Of a DNA stretch of 64,000 nt, positions 26,706-48,065 are shown piece by piece. Under the pieces are notes generated by a model. The model was given only the letters and a program-made list of their open reading frames with translations. It searched no databases and was not told where the DNA came from. The position numbers and the translations under genes are program-made. The DNA is from a virus. Location of the stretch: IMG/VR virus record IMGVR_UViG_3300045988_132920. One strand, written 5' to 3'. Within the stretch, counting starts at the first letter, position 1. Each line of letters begins with the position of its first letter.

Positions 26706-27047
26706 ATGGCACATTTTATTAACATAACAGCTGATAAATTAGATATAACTAATTCTGAAGGTAATAACGCAATAGTGTTTCATATCCCTGGTCACTGTGC
26801 TGGGTGTAAAAGAGCTTTAGAGCTCATAAATGAAATGGCTTTTGATGGTAAATTGGCTGATTGGAATTTTTATTTAATTGATGCTGAAAATGATACTAAT
26901 AAAGTACTTATTGATAAATATGAGGCTACTATAGCTCCAACAATTATTACTTTTAAGTCAGGTGTTAAAATGAATAGAACAAATGGTTTAAAAGAGTTTA
27001 TACAACAAAAGGACAAGTTATTTACAAATGAAACTAATGCAAATTGA
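26706..27047 (+). CDS. Thioredoxin/glutaredoxin-like CxxC protein, 113 aa.
   Basis: RBS (taggagacttaaATG). A CAGC motif follows a beta-strand-like VFHIPGH segment, consistent with a thioredoxin-fold active site. Confidence 0.45.
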   Translation: MAHFINITADKLDITNSEGNNAIVFHIPGHCAGCKRALELINEMAFDGKLADWNFYLIDAENDTNKVLIDKYEATIAPTIITFKSGVKMNRTNGLKEFIQQKDKLFTNETNAN

Positions 27048-28392
27048 ATTTGACAAACACATCCCTAATGATGTCATAACTAAAATTCAAACTCTTGTAG
27101 AGGTATTTACTGATGTATACCCTGATAAAGATATTCAATTAGGTATTGTTGGTGGTGCACTACGAGATATTGCATTGGGTATTAAGCCAAGTGATTGGGA
27201 CTTATTCATAGTCGGATTAACTTCAAATGAAGTCATCCAAGCTCTCACTGCTAATACAAAGTGGGAGGCATTTGAGTCAGGACTCAATTTTTCTATTGTA
27301 AGATGGAATCATTGTGAGATTACGGTTATTGAATCATATGATGACCTATGTGAGGATAGAGCAAGACGTGACCTCAGAATAAACTCCCTATACTTGTCTT
27401 ATGATGGTGGTAGTGGCTGGTATCTATCGACTACTACGGAAATTAATAGAGATTTTGAGCAAGGTATTTTAAGCTCAGACGGAGACGTTGATAAAAAGTT
27501 TGCTCAAGACCCTATAAAAATCCTAAGGGTTCTTAGATTCGCAGCCAAATATCACTTTCAAATTGACAGAGATTTGCACTTTGACATTCTAAGGCTAAGA
27601 CACTTAGTTAAAGATAAGGCTATACCTAAGGATAGAATTTTCCATGAGTTAAAGAAGGGATTTACTTGTGGTAATGCTTATGGGTTTGTTAGACTTCTTG
27701 ATGAGTTTGAGTTACTTGAGCATTTCTTCCCAGCAGTACATGCTTTAAAAGGTATAGACGGTGGTCATTATCACAATGAACAAGTGTTTACACATGTTAT
27801 GTTTGCATTAAAAGCACTTGACCCTATTGACCTACCATTTGAAGTAAAACTTGCTGCACTCTACCATGATACTGGTAAGTATCACTGGGAGATTGTTGAC
27901 GGTAAACGTAGATTTGTTGGTCACGATAGACTTGGTAAGTACGCAGCTAAGCAGGACCTTAATAGATTACGTTTTCCTGAGCACATTAAACGTACTGTAA
28001 AGGCTTTAGTTTGGTTTCATATGCACCAGGTAGATGGTAAAAAATCTACACGTAAGCTGGCTATAGGTCTTGGTAAGTTTAATGTACCATTAAAATATTT
28101 CTTTTGGGTAAGATATGCTGATAATATGGGAAGTGCTGTGTATAAAACAGATTTCATGTATTATTGGAAGCTCTATAGACAGGCTCTTAGGTACATTAAT
28201 CCGAAACACGTTCCGTCTGTAAAAGACCTTGTAATAAATGGTCACACAATTATGGAAAAGTTTGGAATTAAACAAGGACCTATTATTGGTAAGGCTTTAA
28301 AGATTCTGTTTAACAAAGTTGAAAATGAAGAACTTGAAAATGAAGAATCTGCTTTATTAGAAGAACTAAAACGACTTTTACCTACACTTTGA
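27028..28392 (+). CDS. cca: tRNA nucleotidyltransferase (CCA-adding enzyme) with an HD domain.
   Basis: Class II nucleotidyltransferase head motif GGALRD (GGxVRD consensus) near the N-terminus. HD-domain motifs H...LYHDTGK follow, as in bacterial CCA-adding enzymes. It sits next to the tRNA array. Confidence 0.85.
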   Translation: MKLMQIEFDKHIPNDVITKIQTLVEVFTDVYPDKDIQLGIVGGALRDIALGIKPSDWDLFIVGLTSNEVIQALTANTKWEAFESGLNFSIVRWNHCEITVIESYDDLCEDRARRDLRINSLYLSYDGGSGWYLSTTTEINRDFEQGILSSDGDVDKKFAQDPIKILRVLRFAAKYHFQIDRDLHFDILRLRHLVKDKAIPKDRIFHELKKGFTCGNAYGFVRLLDEFELLEHFFPAVHALKGIDGGHYHNEQVFTHVMFALKALDPIDLPFEVKLAALYHDTGKYHWEIVDGKRRFVGHDRLGKYAAKQDLNRLRFPEHIKRTVKALVWFHMHQVDGKKSTRKLAIGLGKFNVPLKYFFWVRYADNMGSAVYKTDFMYYWKLYRQALRYINPKHVPSVKDLVINGHTIMEKFGIKQGPIIGKALKILFNKVENEELENEESALLEELKRLLPTL

Positions 28393-28393
28393 G

Positions 28394-28630
28394 GTGATAA
28401 TGGTACTATATTGGTTTAGTTCACGTTATGACCCTGAGGTAGGGCACGCATATACTAATCTACATGACTTAAAGACATTTTGTGTAAATTGGTATAGTGC
28501 CTATGTGTCCCACAGGCTATCTGCATATTCATATCAAGCTGCTATAATGTCTTGTGTGATGCAAAATTATGACAGTATGAACGAATACAGGCTCTATGGT
28601 ATAATTAAGAGAAGTAAATGGTTTCTATAG
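28394..28630 (+). CDS. Hypothetical small protein, 78 aa.
   Basis: ORF coupled to the CCA gene stop, with RBS tgaggtgataATG. Confidence 0.4.
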   Translation: MIMVLYWFSSRYDPEVGHAYTNLHDLKTFCVNWYSAYVSHRLSAYSYQAAIMSCVMQNYDSMNEYRLYGIIKRSKWFL

Positions 28631-28632
28631 GG

Positions 28633-28661
28633 TTGACAATCGTGAAAACATGATGTATAAT
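28633..28661 (+). promoter_or_regulatory. Consensus promoter driving transcription into an ORF-free region of about 600 nt.
   Basis: gggttgaca, 17-nt spacer, tataat at 28656-28661. Confidence 0.6.
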
Positions 28662-29244: not shown

Positions 29245-29275
29245 AAAAGAGACCCTTATTAGGGTCTCTTTTATG
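29245..29275. terminator. Bidirectional terminator ending the ORF-free transcript (plus) and the HNH gene (minus).
   Basis: Hairpin agagaccc-ttatta-gggtctct flanked by aaaa / tttt. Confidence 0.65.
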
Positions 29276-29693
29276 CGTTACAATTAAGACATCTTTTACC
29301 TTTCTTACGTCCAATTTCAATACCTAGTTCTTGTACAGTCTTTTTAATCATTTGGATATATTTATTACCATCAAATTTTCCAGGAATCTTTACATCTAAA
29401 AACTGGTCAAGATATGCTTTAATCATTGACCAGTCGAGTATTGTATTTAAAGGTTTTGTGCCACGGGCATTGTTCATTTCTTTAGAGGCAAGAGCATAGT
29501 TACTTAGAACAGACCTCCCTCCCTCACTTGCTGGCTTAAGATGTTCCAGCGATACATTGTTGACATTAATACCCTCTCCGTAGATTCCACGTTTGACAGT
29601 AGGTAACTTACCCTTCTTAAATAAAGTTTTTAATTCACTTTGGTATGAGCCAAAGCTCACTTGAGTTCCAGGTTGTACCTTGCTAACAGACAT
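29271..29693 (-). CDS. HNH-family endonuclease.
   Basis: Motifs SLEHLKPASEGG...NYALASKEMNNARG (His-Asn-His core with N spacing) and a C-terminal CLNC zinc-finger-like pair. It is a free-standing minus-strand gene between the CCA gene and the tRNA array. Confidence 0.7.
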   Translation of the reverse strand: MSVSKVQPGTQVSFGSYQSELKTLFKKGKLPTVKRGIYGEGINVNNVSLEHLKPASEGGRSVLSNYALASKEMNNARGTKPLNTILDWSMIKAYLDQFLDVKIPGKFDGNKYIQMIKKTVQELGIEIGRKKGKRCLNCNA

Positions 29694-30158: not shown

Positions 30159-30234
30159 GCGGCTATCGTCTAATCGGTCAGGACGTCACCCTTTCAAGGT
30201 GGAAACGAGGGTTCAAACCCCTCTAGCCGTACCA
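30159..30234 (+). tRNA. tRNA-Glu (anticodon TTC).
   Basis: Cloverleaf read by eye: acceptor gcggcta/tagccgt, anticodon loop cTTTCaa, T-arm gaggg-ttcaaac-ccctc, CCA encoded. Confidence 0.8.
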
Positions 30235-30239
30235 TTTAT

Positions 30240-30314
30240 GGGGCATTAGTTCAGTTTGGTTAGAACATTGCACTGTCACTGCAAAGGTCAGGGATTCGAG
30301 CTCCCTATGCCCCG
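30240..30314 (+). tRNA. tRNA-Asp (anticodon GTC).
   Basis: Acceptor ggggcat/atgcccc, anticodon stem ttgca/tgcaa with loop ctGTCac, T-arm aggga-ttcgagc-tccct. Confidence 0.8.
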
Positions 30315-30550
30315 ATTTTAAAGTCTTATGACCTTGTTGTTATAGTCTGTGGATGGTTGCAAACTGAATCAGACCGAAATGGTACAAAGGACAGAAGTAG
30401 AGGTGCTCCTCTACCTGCATAGACCTACCCAGTTCTCAGTAATGGAATTGTATACTACGTTAACTTGTTGGCTGGTCACTAGGTGCAACTTTGACTAACA
30501 TATGCAGAGTTCAGTAGGTTCGACTCCTACCAAGGTTTTCAGTTTGTTAT

Positions 30551-30625
30551 GGGTCTGTAGCTCAATGGTGGAGCAGGGGACTCATAATCCCTTGGTTACA
30601 GGTTCGACTCCTGTCAGACCCACCA
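30551..30625 (+). tRNA. tRNA-Met (anticodon CAT).
   Basis: Acceptor gggtctg/cagaccc, anticodon loop ctCATaa, T-arm acagg-ttcgact-cctgt, CCA. Confidence 0.8.
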
Positions 30626-31075
30626 AGATTGAAAAGTTATTGTTCACTCGGTCTTTTCTTTGACTCCTTGTGGATTGTTAAAAGACCCACCTAGCTAGGG
30701 GATGGAATATACTAGGGTCCGTTAAGAGATTGTTGGACGTACGTGAAAACCGTATAAATACAAAAATCCATTACAGGTGAAAGTGCAACGGTGCACAGCT
30801 CTGGCTCATAACCAGGCACAGCCAAGCCCTTTTTTTGAAGGAACAACTTAGGTAGCCGTTCGACTCGGCAATATCCTGTATTGAATTCGGGTTGGTAACC
30901 TTTTCACTCATGATGTAGTGTTTGTGCTTGCAAGACGAACACTAAGTAGTGGACTCAGGGTGTGGTCTGAGGGGAAACAACACATAAACGGTACCGACTG
31001 AACTTAACGACTCCGAAGCAGTATAAACATTGGAGGGTCCGTTTGTGGGAGTTTTATAGTCAAACTTCCACACAT

Positions 31076-31151
31076 GCCGAAGTAGCTCAAATGGTAGAGC
31101 AGCTCACTTGTAATGAGACGGTTGTGGGTTCAAGTCCTGCCTTCGGCACCA
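31076..31151 (+). tRNA. tRNA-Thr (anticodon TGT).
   Basis: Acceptor gccgaag/cttcggc, loop ctTGTaa, T-arm ttcaagt, CCA. Confidence 0.75.
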
Positions 31152-31155
31152 ATAT

Positions 31156-31262
31156 TTGATGCTTTAGTTTAAGATTCCCTATCAGTATACTAGTTAGCAT
31201 AGGGAGAAGGCGAAAATACAGGTCCGCAAGCCTGAGATGTTAGTTCGACTCTAGCAAGTATC
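31156..31262 (+). ncRNA. Aberrant tRNA-like element of about 105 nt (7-bp acceptor-like pairing, T-arm gttag-ttcgact-ctagc, internal 7-bp hairpin, non-7-nt anticodon loop).
   Basis: gatgctt pairs with aagtatc and a canonical T-arm is present. The total length and an inserted tccctat...ataggga hairpin do not fit a standard cloverleaf. Possible insertion-containing or degenerate tRNA. Confidence 0.3.
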
Positions 31263-31275
31263 ATCAATTACTTAA

Positions 31276-31350
31276 TGGCAAGTAGCTCAATGGCAGAGCT
31301 CTCGGCTGTTAACCGAGCGGTTGGAGGTTCGAGTCCTCTCTTGCCAGCCA
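31276..31350 (+). tRNA. tRNA-Asn (anticodon GTT).
   Basis: Acceptor tggcaag/cttgcca, loop ctGTTaa, T-arm ggagg-ttcgagt-cctct, CCA. Confidence 0.8.
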
Positions 31351-31372
31351 ATTAACATAAAAGGAGATTAAT

Positions 31373-31630
31373 ATGTACCGATTAGTTAGAGCTTGGAAAG
31401 TCTGGAGAAATAAGAATAAATACAAGAATTCACCAGAATCAATTAAACAGGACATCTATGAGATAATAACGACTAAGTTATTTAAACAACCTCAAGAATG
31501 TCTAAGAGCTTTAGATGAATTTGAAGGTATAGTAAGTTATGACTATGATTCTAAGGGTAATTTTGAAGCAGTATTAGCTAGTGGTACAAAAATTAAGGTT
31601 TGTGTAACTTTAACAACTATTGAAATATAG
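31373..31630 (+). CDS. Hypothetical small basic protein, 85 aa.
   Basis: RBS (aaaggagattaatATG) directly after tRNA-Asn. Confidence 0.55.
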   Translation: MYRLVRAWKVWRNKNKYKNSPESIKQDIYEIITTKLFKQPQECLRALDEFEGIVSYDYDSKGNFEAVLASGTKIKVCVTLTTIEI

Positions 31631-31737
31631 GTGAGAGCCGAATATCAGTTGGTCGGACGTGTCTGTAAAACATGTGCCTAATAAGCCGTTGGGGGTGCAA
31701 CTCCCTTCTCACCTACCATATAATGAAAGGAACTCTT

Positions 31738-32046
31738 ATGAAGTTATTAATGTCTTTATTAGCATTAAGTTTGATGACATCTTCCGTATATGCTCAGAAT
31801 TACTTTCAAACACAAGGTCTTTCTAAGGAAGTTGTTAGTACAGATGACATTATAAATATGTGTAATTACTGTTCACATCATTATTTTATATACAACGTAA
31901 ATCATAAGTATAGATATAAAGTTATTTATGATAATGAGCTTAAATGTAATAATGACTATAATGCACTAGTGCTAAAAATGCAAAATGATGAATATAGTAA
32001 ATGTATAAAGCACGGTGGTGGTACTGCTTGTGCATTACGAAAATAG
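31738..32046 (+). CDS. Secreted small Cys-containing protein, about 102 aa with signal peptide. Paralogue of 34607..34885.
   Basis: Start reassigned to ATG 31738 (RBS gaaagga). Signal peptide MKLLMSLLALSLMTSSVYAQ. C-terminal motif SKCIKHGGGTACALRK. Confidence 0.6.
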   Translation: MKLLMSLLALSLMTSSVYAQNYFQTQGLSKEVVSTDDIINMCNYCSHHYFIYNVNHKYRYKVIYDNELKCNNDYNALVLKMQNDEYSKCIKHGGGTACALRK

Positions 32047-32203
32047 CTTAAGGGAACTGCGGTCCTGAAAACACTAAAAGGCATGCTCCATTACAGAAAA
32101 TCCTAGGTAAGAACCATATTTTAGTGTCAAACTGGCAGAGCTGTAAGTCTAGCTAACTTATAGGAAGTTTAGCAGGGTGGTGTCTGAAAACCCTGTAATC
32201 ATG

Positions 32204-32278
32204 GGGGCACATGTACCAAGGTGGCGAGATTCCCTTGCAAGGAAACTGTGGTGAGTTCGATTCTCATTGTCTCCACCA
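32204..32278 (+). tRNA. tRNA-Ala (anticodon TGC), weak D-arm.
   Basis: Acceptor gggggca/tgtctcc with G-U pairs, anticodon loop ctTGCaa, T-arm gtgag-ttcgatt-ctcat, CCA. D-stem pairing is poor. Confidence 0.5.
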
Positions 32279-32342
32279 ATTAAAACAAACTAATAGGAGA
32301 ATACAAATGAAACTTAAATCACGATGGTGTAATAAACAATAT

Positions 32343-32418
32343 GCGTGTATAGTTTAATGGTTTAGAATTCTGGTCTCCAAAACCAGAGATGTAGGTTCGA
32401 TTCCTGCTACACGTGCCA
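32343..32418 (+). tRNA. tRNA-Trp (anticodon CCA).
   Basis: Acceptor gcgtgta/tacacgt, anticodon stem ctggt/accag with loop ctCCAaa, T-arm ttcgatt, CCA. Confidence 0.8.
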
Positions 32419-32422
32419 ATAC

Positions 32423-32495
32423 GGGTGTGGAGCTCGGTTGGTTGAGCAGCTGGCTTTTAACCAGTTGGTTGCAGGTTCGATTCCTGTCGCACCCA
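32423..32495 (+). tRNA. tRNA-Lys (anticodon TTT).
   Basis: Acceptor gggtgtg/cgcaccc, loop ctTTTaa, T-arm gcagg-ttcgatt-cctgt. No encoded CCA. Confidence 0.75.
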
Positions 32496-32522
32496 ATTTT
32501 TACATAAAAAGGAGAATAAATT

Positions 32523-32756
32523 ATGGCAGTTTTTGCAGTAGCATTAAACAATGAAGGCTATGGATGTGGGTTTTACATCTGGCAAGCCGAAGACGAAGAA
32601 GCTCTTATAGCAGACCTTAAAAAAGAGTGGAATCGAGACCCAGACAATGATGTAGTACAAGCCTGGATAGATGAAGAATGGTTATTCTTCTCAAAAATTG
32701 ATGAAGAAGCATTTAAAGGTGAAAACTATTTTGAGGTATATAATAACTTCTCTTAA
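32523..32756 (+). CDS. Hypothetical small acidic protein, 77 aa.
   Basis: RBS (aaaggagaataaattATG). Its end abuts tRNA-Val. Confidence 0.55.
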   Translation: MAVFAVALNNEGYGCGFYIWQAEDEEALIADLKKEWNRDPDNDVVQAWIDEEWLFFSKIDEEAFKGENYFEVYNNFS

Positions 32757-32832
32757 GCTCGCTTAACTCAATCGGTAGAGTGTCTCCCTTACAAGGAGGA
32801 AGTTGTAGGTTCGAGTCCTACAGCGAGCACCA
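32757..32832 (+). tRNA. tRNA-Val (anticodon TAC).
   Basis: Acceptor gctcgct/agcgagc, loop ctTACaa, T-arm gtagg-ttcgagt-cctac, CCA. Confidence 0.8.
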
Positions 32833-32877
32833 TATTTGTTAAATTTTAATAGGTATAACAAGTATGGAGACAATATA

Positions 32878-33210
32878 ATGGCAGAATTATTTACAGCAGT
32901 TGAAGCTAAAGAAATCACAGATGCAGCATGTGATAAATATGCTGAAATCGTAAGAATAATCAAAGATAAAGCTGCAAACAAACAGTACGAAGTATTATTC
33001 ACAAACGAAGAAGTGTCTGATGAAATCTTTACTAAACTAAGAGAAGGCGGTTTCTACATCAATAGAGCAGCTCGTGGAGTTGTTATTGCGTGGGATACTG
33101 CTGTTAATGCAGACGACAAAAAAGAAGAAGTTACTACACCAGACCCTGGTAAAGAAGAAGATGGTAGTCAAGGCGGTAATGAGCAAGGTGAAGACCAAGT
33201 TACTGAATAG
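32878..33210 (+). CDS. Hypothetical protein with an acidic C-terminus, about 110 aa.
   Basis: Start reassigned to ATG 32878 (RBS ggagacaatataATG). A terminator hairpin at 33231-33262 follows. Confidence 0.55.
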   Translation: MAELFTAVEAKEITDAACDKYAEIVRIIKDKAANKQYEVLFTNEEVSDEIFTKLREGGFYINRAARGVVIAWDTAVNADDKKEEVTTPDPGKEEDGSQGGNEQGEDQVTE

Positions 33211-33265
33211 TCTGCAACTCAAAATCAAATAGGTTTGGAAGGAGCCTAATAGGCTCCTTCCTTAT

Positions 33266-33341
33266 GCCGAGGTAGCTCAGTTGGTAGAGCACCTGTCTGA
33301 AGAACAGGGTGTCACTGGTTCAATTCCAGTCCTCGGCACCA
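33266..33341 (+). tRNA. tRNA-Phe (anticodon GAA).
   Basis: Acceptor gccgagg/cctcggc, D-arm gctcagttggtagagc, loop ctGAAga, T-arm actgg-ttcaatt-ccagt, CCA. Confidence 0.85.
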
Positions 33342-33442
33342 TTTAAAAGTTTGGGTGGTCGTCTAAGTAAAGGACACGAAAATCGAAAATGATGGGGATT
33401 TATTAAGTGACGTCACATATTCAACCTATCCCACCCACCCAT

Positions 33443-33519
33443 ATCCTCGTAGCTCAATAGGACAGAGCATGGAGCTTCTACCTCCAGTGTTGGGGGTTCG
33501 ATTCCCTCCGAGGATGCCA
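33443..33519 (+). tRNA. tRNA-Arg (anticodon TCT).
   Basis: Acceptor atcctcg/cgaggat, loop ctTCTac, T-arm ggggg-ttcgatt-ccctc, CCA. Confidence 0.75.
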
Positions 33520-33606
33520 CTAAGAATCACATGCTAAATGAAGGCTACTCACGGACCAATAAGTAGGTCAGATGAGTTCTGGAGGTCCCACGTGGACTTC
33601 CATTAT

Positions 33607-33680
33607 GCGGATATAGTTTAAAGGTAAAATTCCTCCTTGCCATGGAGATGTTGCGAGTTCGATTCTCGCTATCCGCTCCA
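33607..33680 (+). tRNA. tRNA-Gly (anticodon GCC).
   Basis: Acceptor gcggata/tatccgc, loop ttGCCat, T-arm gcgag-ttcgatt-ctcgc, CCA. Confidence 0.8.
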
Positions 33681-33707
33681 ATAAATAAAAACGAAAGGAA
33701 CACAATT

Positions 33708-33992
33708 ATGATTGATGCAAACTTAGCCGTGCTTGATAAATTAGAAGACCTTATTAAATGTGATGGTAGGTTAACAATTACTTTAAACAAAACGGATTTA
33801 ATGGTTCTCCATAGTGCAATCCATAGTGAAAAGGTTTATATAGATAAACTTTTTAAAGGTTTTGCAGAAGGTGATAATGATGGAGCTGATTTAGATAGCT
33901 TTTGTCAATTACTCGGAGAAATTAGAGCTGACTCTGTTTCAGATATGGAGACAATTATACAAACTATAGTTAATAGAATTTTAGAAACTTAA
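33708..33992 (+). CDS. Hypothetical small protein, about 94 aa.
   Basis: Start reassigned to ATG 33708 (RBS aaacgaaaggaac). The track's 33642 start would overlap tRNA-Gly. Confidence 0.55.
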   Translation: MIDANLAVLDKLEDLIKCDGRLTITLNKTDLMVLHSAIHSEKVYIDKLFKGFAEGDNDGADLDSFCQLLGEIRADSVSDMETIIQTIVNRILET

Positions 33993-34001
33993 CTATATTA
34001 T

Positions 34002-34076
34002 TGCGAATATGGTCTAAAGGCTATGATTTCTGGCTTCCAACCAGACGGTCAGGGTTCGATTCCCTGTATTCGCTCC
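34002..34076 (+). tRNA. tRNA-Gly (anticodon TCC).
   Basis: Acceptor gcgaata/tattcgc, anticodon stem tctgg/ccaga with loop ctTCCaa, T-arm caggg-ttcgatt-ccctg, CCA. Confidence 0.8.
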
Positions 34077-34254
34077 ATTCCAGGTTGCTTAGTTAGCATA
34101 GGTCATACCAAGTGCACAGTATGGCTATGGGTAGGAATAACTCCCTACCCTAACTGGAAGCAACCTATGTCGTAGGACCACGTACAGTGGAGTGCTTGTA
34201 TGAAGAAGCTGCGTGGATAGTATAACAGACATTAAACTCCTTTGGTAGATATGA

Positions 34255-34331
34255 GTCTGGGTAGTCAAATTGGTAGAGACAGGGGACTTAAAATCCTCGT
34301 TTTGTGGGTTCGACTCCCACCCTAGACACCA
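34255..34331 (+). tRNA. tRNA with anticodon TAA (Leu, UUA) but a short class-I variable loop.
   Basis: Acceptor gtctggg/cctagac, anticodon stem gggga/tcctc with loop ctTAAaa, 5-nt variable loop, T-arm gtggg-ttcgact-cccac, A73, CCA. Confidence 0.65.
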
Positions 34332-34335
34332 ATAA

Positions 34336-34412
34336 GCCCCTGTAGTCAAATAGGTAAAGACGGCTGCCTTAGAAGCAGTGTTCTGCGAGTTCGACTCTCG
34401 CTGGGGGCACCA
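34336..34412 (+). tRNA. tRNA with anticodon TAG (Leu, CUA) and a short variable loop.
   Basis: Acceptor gcccctg/tgggggc, loop ctTAGaa, T-arm gcgag-ttcgact-ctcgc, A73, CCA. Confidence 0.65.
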
Positions 34413-34417
34413 ATTAT

Positions 34418-34492
34418 ACCCTTGTAGGCTAACGGAGAAACCGCAACACTACGAATGTTGAGTTCTAGGTTCGATTCCTAGTGGGGGTACCA
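34418..34492 (+). tRNA. tRNA-Arg (anticodon ACG).
   Basis: Anticodon stem caaca/tgttg with loop ctACGaa, T-arm ctagg-ttcgatt-cctag, acceptor with G-U pairs, CCA. Confidence 0.65.
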
Positions 34493-34493
34493 T

Positions 34494-34566
34494 GCCAGTA
34501 TGATGGAATGGTATACATACCAAGCTCAAACCTTGGGTTCTGCAAGTTCGACTCTTGCTACTGGCA
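34494..34566 (+). tRNA. tRNA with anticodon CAA (Leu, UUG) and a short variable loop.
   Basis: Acceptor gccagta/tactggc, anticodon stem ccaag/cttgg with loop ctCAAac, T-arm gcaag-ttcgact-cttgc, A73. No encoded CCA. Confidence 0.65.
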
Positions 34567-34606
34567 TTAGGTTGACAATGTTAAGTTAATATGATATATT
34601 TCTTGT

Positions 34607-34885
34607 ATGAAAAAGACTATTTTACTTACAATGATTTTATTAATGGGGACTGTTACATTAGCAGACGATTGGTATACAAACCCATCAAGTCCTACAAATG
34701 TAATGATGAATCCAATGAATGCTTGGCATCCAGCTAATATTTATCACAACACTGTACTTAACCCTTATAAATACTATGAGGAAGAAGACAGTTATGACAG
34801 AGCTACTAGAATTAAGACTAAGAAGTACAACTCTTGCGTGAAGTATGGTGGTGGAGATGCGTGCAGAAGTATATTAAATAACTAG
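34607..34885 (+). CDS. Secreted small Cys-containing protein, 92 aa with signal peptide. Paralogue of 31738..32046. Probably expressed from a leaderless mRNA.
   Basis: Signal peptide MKKTILLTMILLMGTVTLA. C-terminal NSCVKYGGGDACRSILNN. Promoter ttgaca 34572-34577, tatatt 34595-34600, which places the transcription start at about the ATG. Confidence 0.6.
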   Translation: MKKTILLTMILLMGTVTLADDWYTNPSSPTNVMMNPMNAWHPANIYHNTVLNPYKYYEEEDSYDRATRIKTKKYNSCVKYGGGDACRSILNN

Positions 34886-34958
34886 GTGTAGTGCAGTTTG
34901 GTAGCATGCCTGTTTTGGGAACAGGCGGTCGGGGGTTCAAATCCCTCCACCTAGACCA
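34882..34958 (+). tRNA. tRNA-Pro (anticodon TGG).
   Basis: Acceptor ctaggtg/cacctag, anticodon stem cctgt/acagg with loop ttTGGga, T-arm ggggg-ttcaaat-ccctc, CCA. Confidence 0.75.
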
Positions 34959-34963
34959 ATTAA

Positions 34964-35035
34964 TCCCCGATAGTTTAATCGGCAGAACATCTGATTTTGG
35001 TTCAGAAGGTCGAGGTTCGAGTCCTTGTTGGGGAA
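34964..35035 (+). tRNA. tRNA-Gln (anticodon TTG).
   Basis: Acceptor tccccga/ttgggga, anticodon stem tctga/tcaga with loop ttTTGgt, T-arm cgagg-ttcgagt-ccttg. Confidence 0.65.
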
Positions 35036-35108
35036 TTTTAACTTGGGTTGACAGATATTCAATTTAATGATATAATAACGAAGTAAACATACGAAAAAGG
35101 AAATACAT

Positions 35109-36140
35109 ATGACAACAGAACTTGTAACAAATGAGGATTTGTTCTACTCTTATCCGTCTATTGAAAATTCTTATAGGGAAGAATTCATCAATAAGATTTA
35201 TGCTCACGGATACGGAGATGAACGTTACTACGTAACTGAAAAAATCCATGGCTCAAACACGCAGCTCTCTTATGATGGTAATGAATTCAAGTATGGCACA
35301 CGTAGCCATTATCTTATTGAGAATGAGAAATGCTATAACGTACAGCCCTTACTTGACAAAGTTAAACCTGTATTAGAAGCTGAATACAAAAGATTGAAAG
35401 AAGACGTACCAACCTTAAGAAATGTTATTATCTATGGTGAGGTGTATGGTGGATGCTATCCACACCCTGATGTAAAGGTAAATAATCATGCTTCTAAAGT
35501 ACAAAAAGGTGTTTACTACTCACCTAATAATGAATGGTCAGCATTTGATTTTTGCTATGTAGATGATAATGGTAAGCACTTTTATACAGGTTCACAATTC
35601 ATTAAACTGTGTCAAGTAAATAACATTAGCACTACACCTGTATTAGCTATTGTTAATACACTAAAAGAAGCACTTGAGTTTAATAACGCAGGTGAGTCTA
35701 CCATAGGTCCACTTCTAGGGTACCCTGAGCTTGAAAATAACACTATGGAAGGGGTTGTAATTAAACCCCTTGATAAAGACCTCTGGATGGGTCAAACTCG
35801 TGTAGTAATCAAGAACAAAAATGATAAGTTCAAAGAAAAATCACACGAAAAGAAAGTAAACATCCAAATTGAACTACCAGAGTGTGTTACAAAGGCTTTG
35901 GAGGCTTCTGTACCCTATATAAATGAGAATCGTGTAAATAACGTTATTTCTCATTTAGGTGAAGTGACCTATAAGGACACAGGACGAATCATTGGTGAGA
36001 CTAACAAAGATGTTCTTGCAGTGATTCAAGATGAAGTACCTGAGTATAATCTTATGGAAAAGCAAGAACGTAAGCAATTTACAAAGTTGCTAAATAACGA
36101 AGTTGCTAAAGTTGTACGTAAGGTGATGCAGGTACGTTAA
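35109..36140 (+). CDS. RNA ligase of the T4 Rnl2 family.
   Basis: N-terminal YPSIENSYREEFINKIYAHG and the nucleotidyltransferase motif I TEKIHGSN (T4 Rnl2: EKIHGTN). Later motifs RVVIKNKNDKFKEK and YINENRVNNVISHLGEV closely parallel T4 Rnl2. Promoter ttgaca 35048-35053, tataat 35071-35076. Confidence 0.85.
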   Translation: MTTELVTNEDLFYSYPSIENSYREEFINKIYAHGYGDERYYVTEKIHGSNTQLSYDGNEFKYGTRSHYLIENEKCYNVQPLLDKVKPVLEAEYKRLKEDVPTLRNVIIYGEVYGGCYPHPDVKVNNHASKVQKGVYYSPNNEWSAFDFCYVDDNGKHFYTGSQFIKLCQVNNISTTPVLAIVNTLKEALEFNNAGESTIGPLLGYPELENNTMEGVVIKPLDKDLWMGQTRVVIKNKNDKFKEKSHEKKVNIQIELPECVTKALEASVPYINENRVNNVISHLGEVTYKDTGRIIGETNKDVLAVIQDEVPEYNLMEKQERKQFTKLLNNEVAKVVRKVMQVR

Positions 36141-36173
36141 TCAGGGTAAATTACCCTGATTATGCACCCTTAG

Positions 36174-36248
36174 CCAAGTGGTCAAGGCGGAGGTCTGCAA
36201 AACCTCTATCGTTGGTTCAAATCCAACAGGGTGCTCCATTTGGAGAGT
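36174..36248 (+). tRNA. tRNA-Cys (anticodon GCA).
   Basis: Acceptor gcaccct/agggtgc, anticodon stem gaggt/acctc with loop ctGCAaa, T-arm gttgg-ttcaaat-ccaac, CCA. Confidence 0.8.
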
Positions 36249-36351
36249 AAACTTCAGGGGTCTGAAGGCTGGTTTGCTAAACCAAGTGTTCACGTAAGTG
36301 GATGAGTTTCAAGTACTCTGCTCTCCTCCATTTATAACAAAGGAATAAGTT

Positions 36352-36732
36352 ATGATATATACAGGTTATTTTGCTAAAACAAAAGAATATGAGGCAGCAG
36401 GACTATTCCCTATAGGTGTTGCTGGTAAAACTCCAGATTTCTTTAAGAATATGGTTTGGAGAGATGTAGCACCAAGATGGGACCACTTTAAACGGTGGAA
36501 ATCTGGTGAGATAGATAACTTTCAATATTCTGAACTTTATACAACTATGCTCAACAAGCTAGATAAAGAAGATACAAGGAAGTTTATCCAAGAGCTTCTT
36601 CAGATTAATGAGAATATCATATTCTTATGTTATGAAAAACCAGGTACTTTCTGTCATAGACACATACTAGCAGATTGGCTAGAATCTGAGATAGGAGTGG
36701 GACCTGTTGATGAATATAAATTGGAGGTGTAA
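36352..36732 (+). CDS. DUF488 (YeaO-like) family protein.
   Basis: The C-terminal FCHRHILADWLES matches the DUF488 signature (CHR...LADWL). The N-terminus MIYTGYFAK fits the family. Confidence 0.45.
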   Translation: MIYTGYFAKTKEYEAAGLFPIGVAGKTPDFFKNMVWRDVAPRWDHFKRWKSGEIDNFQYSELYTTMLNKLDKEDTRKFIQELLQINENIIFLCYEKPGTFCHRHILADWLESEIGVGPVDEYKLEV

Positions 36733-38250: not shown

Positions 38251-38548
38251 GGGGTTGACAAATAAATTATCTTATGTTATTATATTTATATAAGGCAAAC
38301 GTCAGGCTAAGTAATCTACAGAACGGTCTGGTGGCAGATATAATTGCCAAGAGCCTCACTATACCGTTGCCGAGCGGTTCTTACATATGGTGAGACAACT
38401 CAGGAGATTGAGACCTCGTGTAAGAAGGTAGCTATTATAGCAAAAAAAAACATCAACTCCACGTTGTAGATAACCTCGCATAAGGGAACGAAAGACCTTG
38501 TTCAACATGCAGCTGACCAGTGAACAGCTTACCAAACACTGGACGTAG

Positions 38549-38622
38549 CGGAGTGGAGCAGTAGTAGCTCGCCAGTCTCATAAGCTGGAGGTCGTGGGTG
38601 CAACTCCCACCTCTCGCAACCA
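38549..38622 (+). ncRNA. tRNA-like element with a CAT anticodon loop but imperfect acceptor stem (possible third CAT tRNA or pseudo-tRNA).
   Basis: Anticodon stem ccagt/gctgg with loop ctCATaa, T-arm gtggg-tgcaact-cccac. Acceptor pairing is poor and the 3' end reads ...aacca. A roughly 250-nt ORF-free leader and a promoter lie upstream; a terminator follows. Confidence 0.4.
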
Positions 38623-45979: not shown

Positions 45980-45981
45980 TT

Positions 45982-46353
45982 ATGATACTTGAATATTCTG
46001 ATGCTAACTTAATACCTATTATAGGTAATGATGATGGACTTTATGTAACCCATGCAGTATCTGTGAAAATTGTGAATAAAAAGGTTCAGAAACGAATGAG
46101 TATTTTTGGTAAGCCTTGTCATCGCTCAAGGTCGCTACTTTCAAAAGACCCTTTTGGTGGTCTTTTACAAACTCCAGGCTATTATGGAAGAATAGCCTAT
46201 TCTATGCCTGAATTATACTACTTTGTATGTGTTGTAAGTTATACAAAATATCTAAGAGAAGCAATGTCAGGTAACTCAATTACTTCAATAGAGTTACACA
46301 CTGGTGGAACTCTTGAAGATATAGTTAGAAGACAGTTGGAGGGTTATGCTTAA
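45982..46353 (+). CDS. Hypothetical protein, 123 aa.
   Basis: ORF with RBS ggagataattATG. Confidence 0.45.
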   Translation: MILEYSDANLIPIIGNDDGLYVTHAVSVKIVNKKVQKRMSIFGKPCHRSRSLLSKDPFGGLLQTPGYYGRIAYSMPELYYFVCVVSYTKYLREAMSGNSITSIELHTGGTLEDIVRRQLEGYA

Positions 46354-46684
46354 GTTAACTGATGTTCGATTAACAGGCTGCTCAATGAAATACTCTACGG
46401 GAGAATGGACTAAAAGTGGTCTTGCGTTAATATGCTATTTTGCTGAGCTTACAGTATGTTCAGATGCTGCTTCAAGTATTATAAGAAGTAGGTGGTTTTG
46501 TAATAAGAGCCCACTACGAGTTGGTTGTAGCTACCAGTATTTTGACTATCCAACAATAGTACGTGCTAGTGGTTATTATCATAGCCCTGGTATTAAACTC
46601 CTATATCCAGTATTACTAAAACAAAAGCCTAGAGGTATAGGTCTTGGTTGTGTGGAGGTATCCTCATATGATTCAAGGGTATAA
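46346..46684 (+). CDS. Hypothetical protein, 112 aa.
   Basis: ORF overlapping the upstream stop. Confidence 0.4.
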   Translation: MLKLTDVRLTGCSMKYSTGEWTKSGLALICYFAELTVCSDAASSIIRSRWFCNKSPLRVGCSYQYFDYPTIVRASGYYHSPGIKLLYPVLLKQKPRGIGLGCVEVSSYDSRV

Positions 46685-46880
46685 AAATGTTCTTGTATTT
46701 GGGCATGTAGGTAATTTATATCTTATACCTGCTAGTGACCATATAACTAAGAGGCTGAGTATATTTCAGTACGTGGAAACACGGGCTCAAGTTCTTCCAG
46801 CTGTTGTGTACGTGTTGGGTTGACAAACTTGTAATCTTATGCTATTATAAATACATAAGCAATACCGAAAGGACAGAATA

Positions 46881-48065
46881 ATGAAAGCAATTAAAACAAA
46901 TAAGAATTCAATTTTGTCATGGGCAAAAGAGATTGAAGAACCAGCATTAAAACAATTAATTAATGCTGCTGAGCACCCTTGTATTAACATGCCTGTAGCT
47001 GTGTGTCCAGATGTACATGCAGGATTTGGTGTAACTATTGGCTGTGTACTTCCAGTAACAGATGCACTAATCCCAAATGCTGTAGGTGTGGATATTGGAT
47101 GCTCAATGTCAGCAGCTAAAACAAATATTCGTGTAGAAGATGTATCAACAGAACTATTAAAGAAGATTGTTGGTGGAGCTAAAGGTTACCCAGGAGGTAT
47201 TAGAGCTAATATCCCTGTAGGACAAAGCCACCACAAAACAAAACAAGACCACCATATCTTTGCTAACAGAGATATGTGGAATGACACAATAGTTTGTGCA
47301 CAAGAACTTGAATCAGCACAATACCAGTTAGGAACAATGGGTGGTGGAAATCACTTTATTGAACTACAAGCTGGAGATGATGGTTTCTTGTATTACATGA
47401 TTCACTCAGGCTCACGTAACTTAGGGTACAAAGTGGGGCAGTATTATGATAAACTTGCTAAAGACTTGTGCAGCAAGTACAAGCAAGATAGAGTAGTACA
47501 AGATGACTTAGCTTTCTTACCAAGAGGTACAAAAGAGTTTGATATGTACTTTAAAGAAATGAATTTGTGCTTGCAGTTTGCCAAAGCAAACCATGAACGT
47601 ATGCAAGAAATCTTAGATGGAATTTTGAGACATTATATTCCTGAAATTGCATTTACTAAACGTTGGTATACAAGGCACAACTATGCAGCTATTGAAAACC
47701 ATAAAGGTGTAAACTACTTTATACATAGGAAGGGTGCTATAAGAGCACGTGTGGGTGATGAACAAATTATCCCTGGCTCACAAGGTACAGCTTCTTATAT
47801 AGTAGAAGGCTTAGGTAATGTGGATTCATATTGCTCAGCTTCACATGGTTCAGGTAGAGTAATGTCAAGAAGGCAGGCAACAGCTTCTTTAAATCTTGCA
47901 GAAGAACAAAAGAAGATGGAAGGTATTGTTCATAACATGACTACTAACAAGCAGTTAGATGAAGCACCTTCAGCTTATAAAGACATTGAAGACGTATTAA
48001 AGCAAGAAGCAGACTTAGTGAATAAAATTGTTAAGTTAAAGCCTATTGCTGTAGTGAAGGAGTAA
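46881..48065 (+). CDS. rtcB: RtcB RNA 3'-phosphate / 2',3'-cyclic-phosphate ligase.
   Basis: Near-canonical RtcB blocks: CPDVHAGFG, AVGVDIGCSM, GGNHFIE, HSGSRNLG, HRKGA, IIPGSQG, SASHGSGRVMSR and SAYKDIEDV. These run collinear with E. coli RtcB motifs over the full length. Promoter ttgaca 46819-46824, tattat 46842-46847. Confidence 0.9.
   Translation: MKAIKTNKNSILSWAKEIEEPALKQLINAAEHPCINMPVAVCPDVHAGFGVTIGCVLPVTDALIPNAVGVDIGCSMSAAKTNIRVEDVSTELLKKIVGGAKGYPGGIRANIPVGQSHHKTKQDHHIFANRDMWNDTIVCAQELESAQYQLGTMGGGNHFIELQAGDDGFLYYMIHSGSRNLGYKVGQYYDKLAKDLCSKYKQDRVVQDDLAFLPRGTKEFDMYFKEMNLCLQFAKANHERMQEILDGILRHYIPEIAFTKRWYTRHNYAAIENHKGVNYFIHRKGAIRARVGDEQIIPGSQGTASYIVEGLGNVDSYCSASHGSGRVMSRRQATASLNLAEEQKKMEGIVHNMTTNKQLDEAPSAYKDIEDVLKQEADLVNKIVKLKPIAVVKE

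What the first reader, a model, noticed from the sequence alone, without database searches (positions are those of the whole stretch)
27028..48065. Co-localised tRNA and RNA-repair toolkit: at least 23 tRNAs, a CCA-adding enzyme, an Rnl2-family ligase, RtcB and an HNH nuclease
Within about 20 kb the phage encodes a large tRNA array (30159-38622). It also encodes an HD-domain CCA-adding enzyme (27028-28392), a T4 Rnl2-like RNA ligase with its own promoter inside the array (35109-36140), and a full-length RtcB 3'-P/2',3'>p RNA ligase (46881-48065). Rnl-type and RtcB-type ligases seal complementary break chemistries: 5'-P/3'-OH and 5'-OH/3'-P or cyclic phosphate. A CCA enzyme with an HD phosphoesterase can rebuild and heal tRNA 3' ends. 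The combined set resembles a counter-defence module against host tRNA-targeting nucleases such as anticodon nucleases or tRNA-cleaving toxins. That such enzymes can serve this role is established for T4 Rnl1/Pnk versus PrrC. Finding RtcB and Rnl2 together inside a phage tRNA island is unusual. No Pnk-like kinase/phosphatase was recognised, so RtcB may cover the 3'-P chemistry.
Basis: partly seen in the sequence, partly recalled or inferred. Interest (0 to 1): 0.8.

Follow-up and report, generated by a model that had tools for sequence, protein, structure and literature searches.

The report
Phage tRNA island with RNA-repair enzymes
An uncultured human-gut phage carries a near-complete set of 27 tRNA genes together with two RNA ligases of complementary chemistry and a tRNA 3'-end rebuilding enzyme, a real and evolutionarily conserved toolkit for keeping translation running when tRNAs are attacked, but of a kind already described in large phages.

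Summary

The grouping is not a coincidence. In eight diverged relatives (Rnl2 43-55% identical), RtcB lies within 10 kb of Rnl2 in five, adjacent in one and inside the tRNA array in another. A CCA-type enzyme lies within 10 kb in four.

The counter-defence reading is plausible but inferred. Codon support and tRNA maturation remain possible. 'Unusual' is overstated. Iyer et al. 2021 already describe jumbo phages that combine tRNAs with RtcB, Rnl1/Rnl2, CCA-adding enzymes and RlaP. Verdict: new member of a known kind, in an uncharacterised gut phage lineage. Interest is moderate to low.

The parts
27028..28392 (+). Class II tRNA nucleotidyltransferase (CCA-adding type) with a C-terminal HD phosphoesterase domain, 454 aa
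   Evidence: Pfam PolyA_pol, PolyA_pol_RNAbd, HD and tRNA_NucTran2_2 are all above cut-off. PHROG 2244 'tRNA nucleotidyltransferase' E 1e-36. GGALRD..DWD, RRDlriN and LYHDTGK are present; motif D reads QDPIK. Homologues in L013, L019, L016 and L022.
28633..28661 (+). Perfect sigma-70-type promoter that opens a ~600-nt ORF-free stretch (28662-29265)
   Evidence: 12/12 consensus match. No Rfam match for the stretch and fold z-score -1.77. Whether it belongs to the module is unknown.
29271..29693 (-). Stand-alone HNH (Cas9-type beta-beta-alpha-metal) nuclease-fold protein, 140 aa
30075..30103 (+). Promoter-like site (11/12, extended -10 TG) 56 nt upstream of the first tRNA
30159..38618 (+). tRNA array of 27 genes covering all 20 amino acids, one anticodon per codon box with U34 in four-fold boxes, interrupted by small ORFs, Rnl2, DUF488 and a DNA methyltransferase
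   Evidence: ARAGORN finds 25. Rfam scores 24 at 50.8-74.2 bits and Tyr at 31.8 bits. 21 of 27 encode a 3' CCA and 6 do not. The anticodon set fits the codon usage, which is 77% A/T at third positions.
32205..32278 (+). tRNA-Ala(UGC) with G3:U70 and a weak D arm
   Evidence: Rfam 28.5 bits against GA 29. ARAGORN calls it at -ps95. 97% identical in L013 and 89% in L014.
35048..35076 (+). Perfect sigma-70-type promoter (extended -10 TG) 33 nt upstream of the Rnl2 start codon
35109..36140 (+). Rnl2-family ATP-dependent RNA ligase (seals 3'-OH/5'-P), 343 aa, inside the array
   Evidence: PF09414 78 bits and PF18043 49.7 bits. TIGR02307 scores 140.6 bits, below its equivalog cut-off of 197. Alignment to T4 Rnl2 2HVQ with motifs I, III, IV and V conserved. 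275 homologues, many on 180-300 kb contigs.
36242..36330 (+). (8/4) tRNA-Ser(GCU): 8-bp acceptor stem, 6-bp D stem, long variable arm, 4-bp T stem, encoded CCA
   Evidence: 10 compensatory pairs against the L019 homologue. The kind was described by Mukai et al. (PMC5389517).
36352..36732 (+). DUF488-N3a protein, 126 aa, function unknown; a weak candidate for an end-processing enzyme
46820..46848 (+). Promoter-like site (11/12) 33 nt upstream of the RtcB start codon
46881..48065 (+). RtcB GTP-dependent RNA ligase (seals 3'-P or 2',3'>P with 5'-OH), 394 aa, bacterial-size
   Evidence: PF01139 316 bits over profile positions 1-426. PHROG 1075 E 6e-109. DVHAG, DIGC, GNHF, HSGSR, HN and SHGSGR motifs conserved against 1UC2/2EPG. 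Homologues lie next to Rnl2 in L014, L019 and L020 at 50-60% identity.

Best explanation
This is a translation-protection island of a large, uncultured human-gut phage. It combines replacement and repair.

(1) Replacement. A self-sufficient set of 27 tRNAs, one per codon box and matched to the phage's A/T-ending codons, can stand in for host tRNAs that are depleted or cleaved.

(2) Repair without end-healing. RtcB directly seals 3'-P or 2',3'-cyclic-P with 5'-OH breaks. These are left by metal-independent RNases such as HEPN anticodon nucleases, MazF-type toxins and colicin-type tRNases. The Rnl2-family ligase directly seals 3'-OH/5'-P nicks, which are left by metal-dependent nucleases such as Toprim (AriB/OLD), HNH (PtuB) or PIN enzymes. 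The class II nucleotidyltransferase rebuilds clipped 3' CCA ends. It also matures the six phage tRNAs that lack an encoded CCA. Its HD domain may remove 2',3'-cyclic or 3'-phosphates.

Strong host-type promoters in front of the array, Rnl2 and RtcB suggest expression by host RNA polymerase.

Shown here: the identity and catalytic intactness of the parts, the integrity of the tRNAs, and the evolutionary conservation of the association. Inferred: the substrates, the timing, and the counter-defence purpose.
For: Parts. The tRNAs have high scores, are complete and are conserved. The anticodon set matches the codon usage.

Conserved neighbourhood. Eight relatives have Rnl2 43-55% identical to the window's.
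- L014: RtcB is adjacent to Rnl2.
- L019: RtcB and Rnl2 both lie inside a 25-tRNA array that follows a CCA gene and a tmRNA.
- L020: RtcB is within 1.2 kb of Rnl2, after a 22-tRNA array.
- L016 and L022: RlaP-HNH-Rnl2-UvrD, with RtcB and a PolyA_pol/CCA enzyme within about 8 kb.

In L016 and L022 the RtcB and CCA enzymes are only 25-29% identical to the window's, while Rnl2 is 43-46% identical. The trio is therefore kept together across very distant versions of two of its genes. A MazE antitoxin gene sits two genes upstream of RtcB in L016.

Background rates are low. RtcB occurs in 1.4% and Rnl2-like ligases in 2.8% of phage records.

Promoters.

Literature.
- Jumbo phages pair tRNAs with RtcB, Rnl1/2, CCA-adding enzyme and RlaP as predicted counters to tRNA-cleaving immunity (PMC7824862).
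- AriB leaves 3'-OH/5'-P ends (PMC12409363).
- Cas12a3 clips tRNA CCA tails (PMC12851939).
- By their titles and abstracts, phage tRNAs overcome tRNA-targeting defences (PMC10264068 and PMC11555353; PMC11464382).
Against: - There is no functional data, and the host and its defence repertoire are unknown.
- The relatives share ancestry, so part of the co-localisation is inherited synteny and not independent selection.
- In L013, L015 and L021 no RtcB lies within 10 kb of Rnl2. Distant Rnl2 homologues in IMG/VR have no tRNAs nearby.
- T4 Rnl2 prefers nicks in duplex RNA, and its natural substrate is still unknown, so tRNA repair by this ligase is an assumption.
- The nucleotidyltransferase's motif D has Lys where the templating Arg is expected. 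Its best solved relatives are annotated as poly(A) polymerases (3wfo and the 3aq entries). CCA specificity is therefore unproven.
- The tRNA set is equally well explained by codon-usage support.
Confidence: 0.65

Rival explanations
1. The island is for translation capacity and tRNA maturation only. The tRNAs adapt an AT-rich phage (35% GC) to its own codon usage or make it independent of the host pool after host shut-off. The nucleotidyltransferase is there to add CCA to the six phage tRNAs that lack it. The ligases serve other RNA transactions, and their proximity is incidental.
For: 77% of third codon positions are A or T. The set is one tRNA per box, with U34 in the four-fold boxes, which fits the phage's codons. 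Six of 27 tRNAs lack an encoded CCA and need an adding enzyme. The relatives also carry a tmRNA, another general translation component.
Against: This does not explain why two ligases of complementary chemistry recurrently sit next to or inside the arrays, including adjacent Rnl2-RtcB pairs. It also does not explain why RlaP, a ligase-associated repair nucleotidyltransferase, joins them in L016 and L022. A host with CCA-less tRNA genes already needs its own CCA enzyme.
Confidence: 0.2
2. This is an accessory-gene hot spot with no functional link. tRNA arrays in large phages are plastic regions that accumulate unrelated cargo such as methyltransferases, nucleases and small ORFs. The repair genes are merely co-resident there and are inherited together.
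For: The array also holds a DNA N6/N4 methyltransferase, DUF488 and several lineage-specific small ORFs with no homologues in the relatives. TnpB-like insertions and an integrase occur in the relatives' arrays. The ORFs flanking RtcB are not conserved.
Against: Gene order is heavily rearranged among the relatives, yet Rnl2, RtcB and CCA stay within a few kb of each other. A sub-lineage also keeps the trio with very distant RtcB and CCA versions. The background frequencies of RtcB and Rnl2 in phages are low.
Confidence: 0.1
3. The module repairs self-inflicted damage or processes phage RNA. The ligases and the nucleotidyltransferase would mend RNAs cut by the phage's own nucleases, such as the HNH protein or host-RNA degradation enzymes. 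Alternatively, they would join fragments during maturation of phage transcripts.
For: A conserved HNH-fold protein sits beside the array. HNH-Rnl2 operons occur in L016 and L022. HNH-Rnl2 fusions are noted in the literature (PMC7824862).
Against: ARAGORN and Rfam report no intron-containing or split tRNA, and Rfam reports no intron family in the array. Nothing indicates that the HNH protein acts on RNA.
Confidence: 0.05

Closest known systems
Jumbo-phage RNA-repair and tRNA provisioning systems (Iyer, Anantharaman, Krishnan, Burroughs & Aravind 2021, Viruses 13:63; Burroughs & Aravind 2016, NAR 44:8525)
   Same: It has the same inventory: many tRNAs, RtcB and/or Rnl2-type ligases, and a CCA-adding enzyme. 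RlaP and HNH-linked Rnl2 appear in the relatives. The proposed role is the same, countering attacks on the translation apparatus.
   Different: This lineage has no isolated relative; the best protein identity to any deposited phage is about 30-39%. The ligases are physically embedded in or abut the tRNA array. No kinase or phosphatase end-healing partner is detectable in 64 kb, whereas the review states that such enzymes generally accompany ATP-grasp (its term for Rnl1/Rnl2-type) ligases.
T4 Pnkp + Rnl1 repair of PrrC-cleaved tRNA-Lys (Amitsur, Levitz & Kaufmann 1987)
   Same: It is a phage-encoded repair of tRNA breaks inflicted by a host defence.
   Different: There is no Pnkp and no Rnl1. 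The 2',3'>P/5'-OH chemistry would be handled in one step by RtcB instead of by heal-and-seal. The ATP-dependent ligase is of the Rnl2 family, not Rnl1.
T4 RNA ligase 2 (gp24.1; PDB 2HVQ)
   Same: It has the same two-domain architecture (nucleotidyltransferase domain plus Rnl2 C-terminal domain) and the same catalytic motifs.
   Different: Identity to T4-like phage Rnl2 is only about 28%. It scores below the NCBIfam equivalog cut-off, 140.6 against 197 bits.
Bacterial RtcB (E. coli rtcBA operon; PrfH-associated RtcB2)
   Same: It shows a full-length RtcB profile match with all metal-ligand and His-GMP motifs, and it is of bacterial length, 394 aa.
   Different: No RtcA, RtcR, archease or PrfH partner is present. 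It is below every NCBIfam RtcB cut-off, so it belongs to a distinct phage subfamily.
E. coli multifunctional CCA-adding/repair enzyme (Cca, with HD-domain phosphoesterase activities)
   Same: It has the same head, body and HD domain organisation. NCBIfam PRK10885 'multifunctional CCA addition/repair protein' is matched at 92 bits.
   Different: It is far below the equivalog cut-off (92 against 451 bits). Motif D reads QDPIK where EDxxR is expected. Its specificity (CCA, A or poly(A)) is unknown.
(8/4) tRNA-Ser / allo-tRNAs (Mukai et al. 2017, NAR 45:2776)
   Same: The tRNA at 36242-36330 has the 8-bp acceptor stem, 4-bp T stem, long variable arm and serine anticodon described for phages and Clostridia.
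   Different: Only one homologue (L019) was compared here, and aminoacylation identity was not tested.

Membership tests
Rnl2-family RNA ligase | Nucleotidyltransferase domain with a motif I lysine (KxxG) and motifs III, IV and V | tested here: met
   PF09414 scores 78 bits against a cut-off of 27. EKIHGSN, YGEV, EGVVIKP and IKNKN align with the corresponding segments of T4 Rnl2; the motif numbering is from my own knowledge of the family.
Rnl2-family RNA ligase | Rnl2-specific C-terminal domain | tested here: met
   PF18043 T4_Rnl2_C scores 49.7 bits against a cut-off of 27, over residues 258-334.
Rnl2-family RNA ligase | NCBIfam equivalog score (TIGR02307) | tested here: not met
   140.6 bits against a cut-off of 197.15. 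It is a family member but not an equivalog-level match.
Rnl2-family RNA ligase | ATP-dependent sealing of 3'-OH/5'-P RNA nicks | not testable with these tools
   Needs biochemistry.
RtcB RNA ligase | Full-length RtcB fold/profile | tested here: met
   PF01139 scores 316.3 bits over profile positions 1-426 of 426.
RtcB RNA ligase | Metal-binding Asp/Cys/His residues and the His that forms the His-GMP intermediate | tested here: met
   DVHAG, DIGC, GNHF, HSGSR, HN and SHGSGR align with the corresponding P. horikoshii and T. thermophilus RtcB motifs.
RtcB RNA ligase | GTP/Mn-dependent joining of 3'-P or 2',3'>P to 5'-OH | not testable with these tools
   Needs biochemistry.
Class II CCA-adding enzyme | Pol-beta head with GGxxRD...DxD (motif A) and RRD (motif B) | tested here: met
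   GGALRD...DWD and RRDLRIN are present. PF01743 scores 36.2 bits against a cut-off of 23.
Class II CCA-adding enzyme | Motif D EDxxR amino-acid template for CTP/ATP selection | tested here: inconclusive
   It reads QDPIK. Asp is kept and Arg is replaced by Lys. The L016 homologue reads QDPLR.
Class II CCA-adding enzyme | CCA, as opposed to A-adding or poly(A), specificity | not testable with these tools
   The best solved relatives are annotated as poly(A) polymerases (3wfo, 3aqm/3aqk/3aql), ahead of the CCA-adding enzymes.
Class II CCA-adding enzyme | HD phosphoesterase domain with H...HD...D ligands | tested here: met
   PF01966 scores 25.6 bits against a cut-off of 22. H249, H256, H280, D281, H299, H331 and D365 are invariant among three homologues.
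HNH nuclease | Beta-beta-alpha-metal fold with catalytic His and Asn residues | tested here: met
HNH nuclease | Pfam HNH-clan profile match | tested here: not met
   There is no Pfam hit at E <= 0.1. One of 46 homologues carries PF13395.
T4-type heal-and-seal system (Pnkp + Rnl1) | Polynucleotide kinase/3'-phosphatase | tested here: not met
   No Pnk, 2H or phosphatase family is found in the 65 ORFs scanned with Pfam.
T4-type heal-and-seal system (Pnkp + Rnl1) | Rnl1-family ligase | tested here: not met
   The only ATP-dependent ligase is of the Rnl2 type.
Functional tRNA genes | Rfam RF00005 score at or above the gathering score, and a cloverleaf | tested here: met
   25 of 27 score at least 29 bits. 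Ala scores 28.5 bits but is 97% conserved in a diverged relative. Ser(GCU) is supported by covariation.
(8/4) tRNA-Ser / allo-tRNA | 8-bp acceptor stem plus 4-bp T stem, long variable arm, Ser anticodon | tested here: met
   The structure was counted on the window/L019 alignment: 98.3% of cells pair and 10 pairs are compensatory. The definition is from PMC5389517.
Anti-defence (counter-immunity) module | Demonstrated rescue of infection from a tRNA-targeting host system | not testable with these tools
   The phage is uncultured and its host is unknown.

The most novel reading that the evidence does not exclude
In this gut-phage clade the island is a 'healing-free' dual-ligase repair system, and the conserved DUF488-N3a protein is an unrecognised RNA-end-processing enzyme. 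That protein has an invariant Cys-x-Glu at a strand end and an HRH at a helix start, on a Rossmann-like fold that weakly resembles rhodanese and Cys-phosphatases. It could be a 3'- or 2'-phosphatase feeding Rnl2, taking the place of the missing Pnkp. This would give DUF488, a widespread family of unknown function, its first biochemical role.
Probability: 0.08. Interest if true: 0.6.

Novelty: new member of a known kind. Interest (0 to 1): 0.35.

Why it matters
tRNA-targeting immunity (PrrC/RloC, PARIS, retron PtuAB, Schlafens, Cas12a3) is now recognised as widespread, and phage tRNAs are proven escape devices. This island is a clean, conserved natural example from an abundant, uncultured human-gut phage lineage. 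Tool results show identical RtcB on 21 contigs, from several gut metagenome samples. The island holds replacement tRNAs, two ligases that together cover both RNA break chemistries, and a 3'-end rebuilder, all packed together with no detectable end-healing enzyme.

If the inferred function holds, it suggests that gut bacteria hosting these phages deploy several mechanistically different RNA-cleaving defences. It would also give a compact set of enzymes (RtcB, Rnl2, CCA/HD) to test as broad-spectrum anti-defence genes.

It does not change current understanding, because the category is already described.

Tried and rejected
(1) Close relatives among deposited phages. Megablast of the 21-kb region found only a 42-nt tRNA match. 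Protein searches gave at most 39% identity.

(2) IMG/VR relatives found through Rnl2. There were five loci at 31-37% identity, none with tRNAs within 10 kb, so they are uninformative for the module.

(3) Pseudomonas phage vB_PsaM_M1, the best Rnl2 hit among isolates. Its gene organisation is different.

(4) Archease, Pnk, 2H or other healing genes. Pfam scans of 65 ORFs across the window were negative.

(5) DUF488 as a known RNA-repair component.
- Neither the literature searches nor the one paper read for it gave a biochemical role, and Burroughs & Aravind 2016 is not held.
- There is no significant sequence match in the PDB; the best is E 0.032.
- In unrelated jumbo phages (STsAS, KTN4) the homologue is not near repair genes.
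- I therefore rejected it as an established module member and kept it only as a low-probability lead.
- The afdb50 fold library was unavailable.

(6) A tmRNA in the window, as found in five relatives. There is none by ARAGORN, even relaxed, by BLAST with the relatives' tmRNAs, or by Rfam.

(7) The ORF-free 28662-29265 stretch as a known RNA. It has no Rfam match, a fold z-score of -1.77, and no similarity to the relatives.

(8) Introns or split tRNAs that would need RtcB for splicing. ARAGORN and Rfam found none.

(9) A weak YrlA (Y-RNA-like) hit at 30495-30602, E 0.07. It is explained by overlap with tRNA-Met and was rejected.

Full report
SOURCE AND CONTEXT. The window is 35% GC. It has no close relative among 50,697 deposited phage genomes: megablast of the 21-kb region matched only 42 nt of a tRNA. 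An identical RtcB protein is encoded on 21 metagenomic contigs, with human gut metagenome samples among the places shown. One contig is 73 kb and one falls in the 0.2-1 Mb class. Upstream genes are tail-fibre-like proteins and an exonuclease V/Dda-like helicase. The helicase's closest matches include uncultured 'human fecal' phage contigs at about 30% identity. The window is therefore part of a large, uncultured human-gut phage.

CHECK OF THE OBSERVATION.

tRNAs. ARAGORN finds 25 tRNA genes between 30159 and 38618, all on the + strand. Rfam lists 24 at gathering score with 50.8-74.2 bits. The class II tRNA-Tyr scores 31.8 bits against GA 29 in the more permissive run. Two further elements are real tRNAs.
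- 32205-32278 is a tRNA-Ala(UGC). It scores 28.5 bits and ARAGORN calls it at a relaxed threshold. Reading the sequence, its acceptor stem carries the G3:U70 alanine identity pair. It is 97% identical in relative L013, whose Rnl2 is only 53% identical, and 89% identical in L014. This indicates strong purifying selection.
- 36242-36330 folds into a cloverleaf with an 8-bp acceptor stem, a 6-bp D stem, a long variable arm, a 4-bp T stem, anticodon GCU and an encoded CCA. Against its homologue in L019 (78% identity), 10 of 30 pairs changed on both sides and 98.3% of cells pair. Slid controls give at most one compensatory pair.

The array therefore holds 27 tRNA genes for all 20 amino acids, one anticodon per codon box, with U34 in the four-fold boxes. 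This fits the phage's codon usage, which is 77% A/T at third positions. Twenty-one of the 27 encode the 3' CCA. Asp, Lys, Leu(CAA), Gln and two of the three CAU tRNAs do not.

Enzymes.
- 27028-28392 has the PolyA_pol head, RNA-binding, HD and tRNA_NucTran2_2 domains, all above Pfam cut-offs. It carries GGALRD...DWD, RRDlriN and LYHDTGK. Its motif D reads QDPIK where EDxxR is expected, and its best solved relatives are annotated as poly(A) polymerases. CCA specificity is therefore likely but unproven.
- 35109-36140 has the RNA_ligase and T4_Rnl2_C domains. It aligns with T4 Rnl2 along its length, with the lysine of motif I (EKIHGSN) and motifs III, IV and V conserved.
- 46881-48065 matches the whole RtcB profile at 316 bits. 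All metal-ligand motifs and the SHGSGR histidine are conserved.

Promoters. The window contains 13 such perfect sites, all on the + strand, against 0.12 expected. Near-perfect sites precede the first tRNA (30075) and RtcB (46820).

End-healing genes. No Pnk, 2H phosphoesterase, archease or other end-healing gene was found among the 65 ORFs scanned with Pfam.

IS THE GROUPING MEANINGFUL? A search with the Rnl2 protein returned 275 homologues (E <= 1e-10). Many are 40-56% identical and sit on 130-300 kb contigs. I fetched eight contexts.
- L013 (238-kb contig) is syntenic with the window. The order is thioredoxin-like, an HD/CCA-type protein, HNH, Rnl2, 23 tRNAs by ARAGORN's default call (25 at a relaxed threshold), a tmRNA, DUF488-N3a, methyltransferase and AdoMet decarboxylase-like.
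- In L014, RtcB is the gene immediately after Rnl2, at the end of a 25-tRNA array.
- In L019, both RtcB and Rnl2 lie inside a 25-tRNA array that follows a CCA-type gene and a tmRNA.
- In L020, a 22-tRNA array and a tmRNA precede Rnl2, and RtcB follows two small ORFs further on.
- L016 and L022 have no tRNAs nearby. They have an RlaP-HNH-Rnl2-UvrD block, with RtcB and a PolyA_pol-type enzyme within about 8 kb, and in L016 a MazE antitoxin gene two genes upstream of RtcB.
- L015 and L021 have Rnl2 without RtcB within 10 kb.

RtcB is therefore within 10 kb of Rnl2 in five of eight relatives, and a CCA-type enzyme in four of eight. The RtcB and CCA proteins of L016 and L022 are only 25-29% identical to the window's, while their Rnl2 is 43-46% identical. 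The trio is thus held together across very distant versions of two of its members, which argues for selection on the combination and not only inherited synteny. Background frequencies among deposited phages are 1.4% for RtcB and 2.8% for Rnl2-like ligases. By contrast, the ORFs that flank RtcB in the window have no counterpart in the relatives, and distant Rnl2 homologues in IMG/VR have no tRNAs nearby.

MECHANISM (inferred). RtcB seals 3'-P or 2',3'>P with 5'-OH ends. Rnl2 seals 3'-OH with 5'-P ends. Both statements are established enzymology of the two families. With both present, breaks from metal-independent RNases and from metal-dependent nucleases can each be sealed in one step. The first group includes HEPN anticodon nucleases, MazF-type toxins and colicin-type tRNases. 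The second includes AriB, a Toprim nuclease shown to leave 3'-OH/5'-P ends (PMC12409363). This would explain the absence of a Pnkp.

The nucleotidyltransferase would rebuild clipped 3' tails. Such clipping is now known for Cas12a3 (PMC12851939). The same enzyme would also mature the six CCA-less phage tRNAs. Its HD domain has conserved ligands, and in the E. coli enzyme this domain is known to have phosphoesterase activity.

The complete tRNA set provides replacement. By their titles and abstracts, several papers show that phage tRNAs defeat tRNA-targeting defences (PMC10264068 and PMC11555353; PMC11464382). Strong host-type promoters suggest transcription by host RNA polymerase.

None of these functional steps was or could be tested here.

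COMPARISON WITH WHAT IS KNOWN. Iyer et al. 2021 (PMC7824862) describe this category in jumbo phages. [quoted passage not shown] They also report the RlaP and CCA-adding nucleotidyltransferases, and HNH domains fused to Rnl2.

Three things are specific here.
- The lineage is gut-derived and uncultured, with no isolate relative.
- The ligases are physically embedded in or abut the tRNA array.
- No end-healing enzyme is detectable, whereas the review notes that such enzymes generally accompany ATP-grasp ligases.

The 8/4 tRNA-Ser is also a known kind, reported in phages and Clostridia (PMC5389517).

VERDICT. It is a new member of a known kind, of moderate to low interest.

Noticed in passing
window 36242-36330; L019 14275-14368: An (8/4) 'Sec-like' tRNA-Ser(GCU) was missed by ARAGORN and scores below the Rfam tRNA-Sec gathering score. 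It has 10 compensatory pairs against its L019 homologue. The kind was described by Mukai et al. 2017 in phages and Clostridia.
   Followed up: yes
window 32205-32278; L013 9875-9949; L014 9393-9469: tRNA-Ala(UGC) has a degenerate D arm and G3:U70. It is below the Rfam threshold yet 97% identical in a relative whose proteins are about 50% identical. Its 3' end also resembles the tRNA-like domain of the relatives' tmRNAs.
   Followed up: partly
window 34255-34331, 34336-34412, 34493-34567: All three tRNA-Leu genes are only 75-77 nt long, with a class I, short variable arm. Bacterial tRNA-Leu is class II. The relatives carry a mix of long (82-87 nt) and short Leu tRNAs. The short Leu(CAA) is 97% identical in L013 and lacks both A73 and an encoded CCA.
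   Followed up: partly
window 28633-29265: A ~600-nt ORF-free stretch lies between a perfect sigma-70 promoter and a strong hairpin followed by a T-run. It has no Rfam family, a fold z-score of -1.77, and no similarity to the relatives. In L019 a tmRNA occupies the equivalent position, after the CCA gene and a small ORF; in L013 the tmRNA lies further downstream. It may be an unknown non-coding RNA.
   Followed up: partly
L013 6424-6821; L014 7816-8187; L015 11096-11503; L019 956-1345; L020 7583-7993: Five relatives encode a phage tmRNA (tag peptide ANNVIKADFGYRTAIAA or variants) within or beside the tRNA array. The window has none.
   Followed up: partly
window 36352-36732: A DUF488-N3a protein lies inside the array. 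It has invariant YTG, C-x-E and FCHRH residues, a confident alpha/beta model and weak rhodanese/Cys-phosphatase-like fold matches. Homologues occur in phiKZ-like, Lak, Erwinia and Salmonella jumbo phages (154 phage records). Its function is unknown.
   Followed up: partly
window 42334-43836; L014 3785-5341; L016 20244-; L019 16531-17973; L020 13391-14926: A 500-aa SPFH/Band_7 protein is the best-conserved protein of the neighbourhood, at 47-67% identity. It recurs within a few kb of RtcB and is adjacent to it in L020. I know of no link to RNA repair.
   Followed up: no
window 40475-41023 (-); L013 19205-19771; L019 15829-16383: An S-adenosylmethionine decarboxylase-like gene (PF02675) sits on the opposite strand and is conserved at 62-66% identity in two relatives. 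A DNA N6/N4 methyltransferase (37597-38250) sits inside the array.
   Followed up: no
L013 4135-5121: The L013 homologue of the CCA enzyme (328 aa, 46-47% identical) lacks the nucleotidyltransferase head. It keeps the HD domain and C-terminal part, directly after a ThyX gene. This hints that the HD phosphoesterase is selected on its own.
   Followed up: partly
window 27028-28392, residues ~160-166: Motif D of the nucleotidyltransferase reads QDPIK where EDxxR is expected. Lys replaces the base-templating Arg. The L016 homologue keeps the Arg.
   Followed up: partly
window 50646-63970: A series of near-identical strong promoters (TTGACAT-TAA-TTT-TTAGTG-TATAAT) precedes small ORFs with no Pfam match, which looks like an early-gene region. 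The extended -10 TG and exact 17-nt spacing suggest a host with canonical sigma-70/sigma-A promoters, possibly Firmicutes.
   Followed up: partly
window 49441-50289 (-): A T5orf172/MUG113 (GIY-YIG-related) gene lies on the opposite strand just downstream of the RtcB block. It has no homologue in the relatives and is likely a mobile nuclease.
   Followed up: no
L013 1534-3108; L019 20339-; L021 14795-16171: TnpB/Cas12f-like (IS605-family) genes are inserted in or near the islands of three relatives. An integrase sits next to DUF488 in L015.
   Followed up: no
L016 16290-16457: A MazE antitoxin-like gene lies between the PolyA_pol-type enzyme and RtcB in a relative. This is suggestive of countering MazF-type RNases, whose products RtcB can religate.
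   Followed up: no
window 24969-26429: A 486-aa protein with BspA-type leucine-rich repeats (LRR_5) lies upstream of the island, next to tail-fibre-like genes. It may be a host-recognition protein.
   Followed up: no
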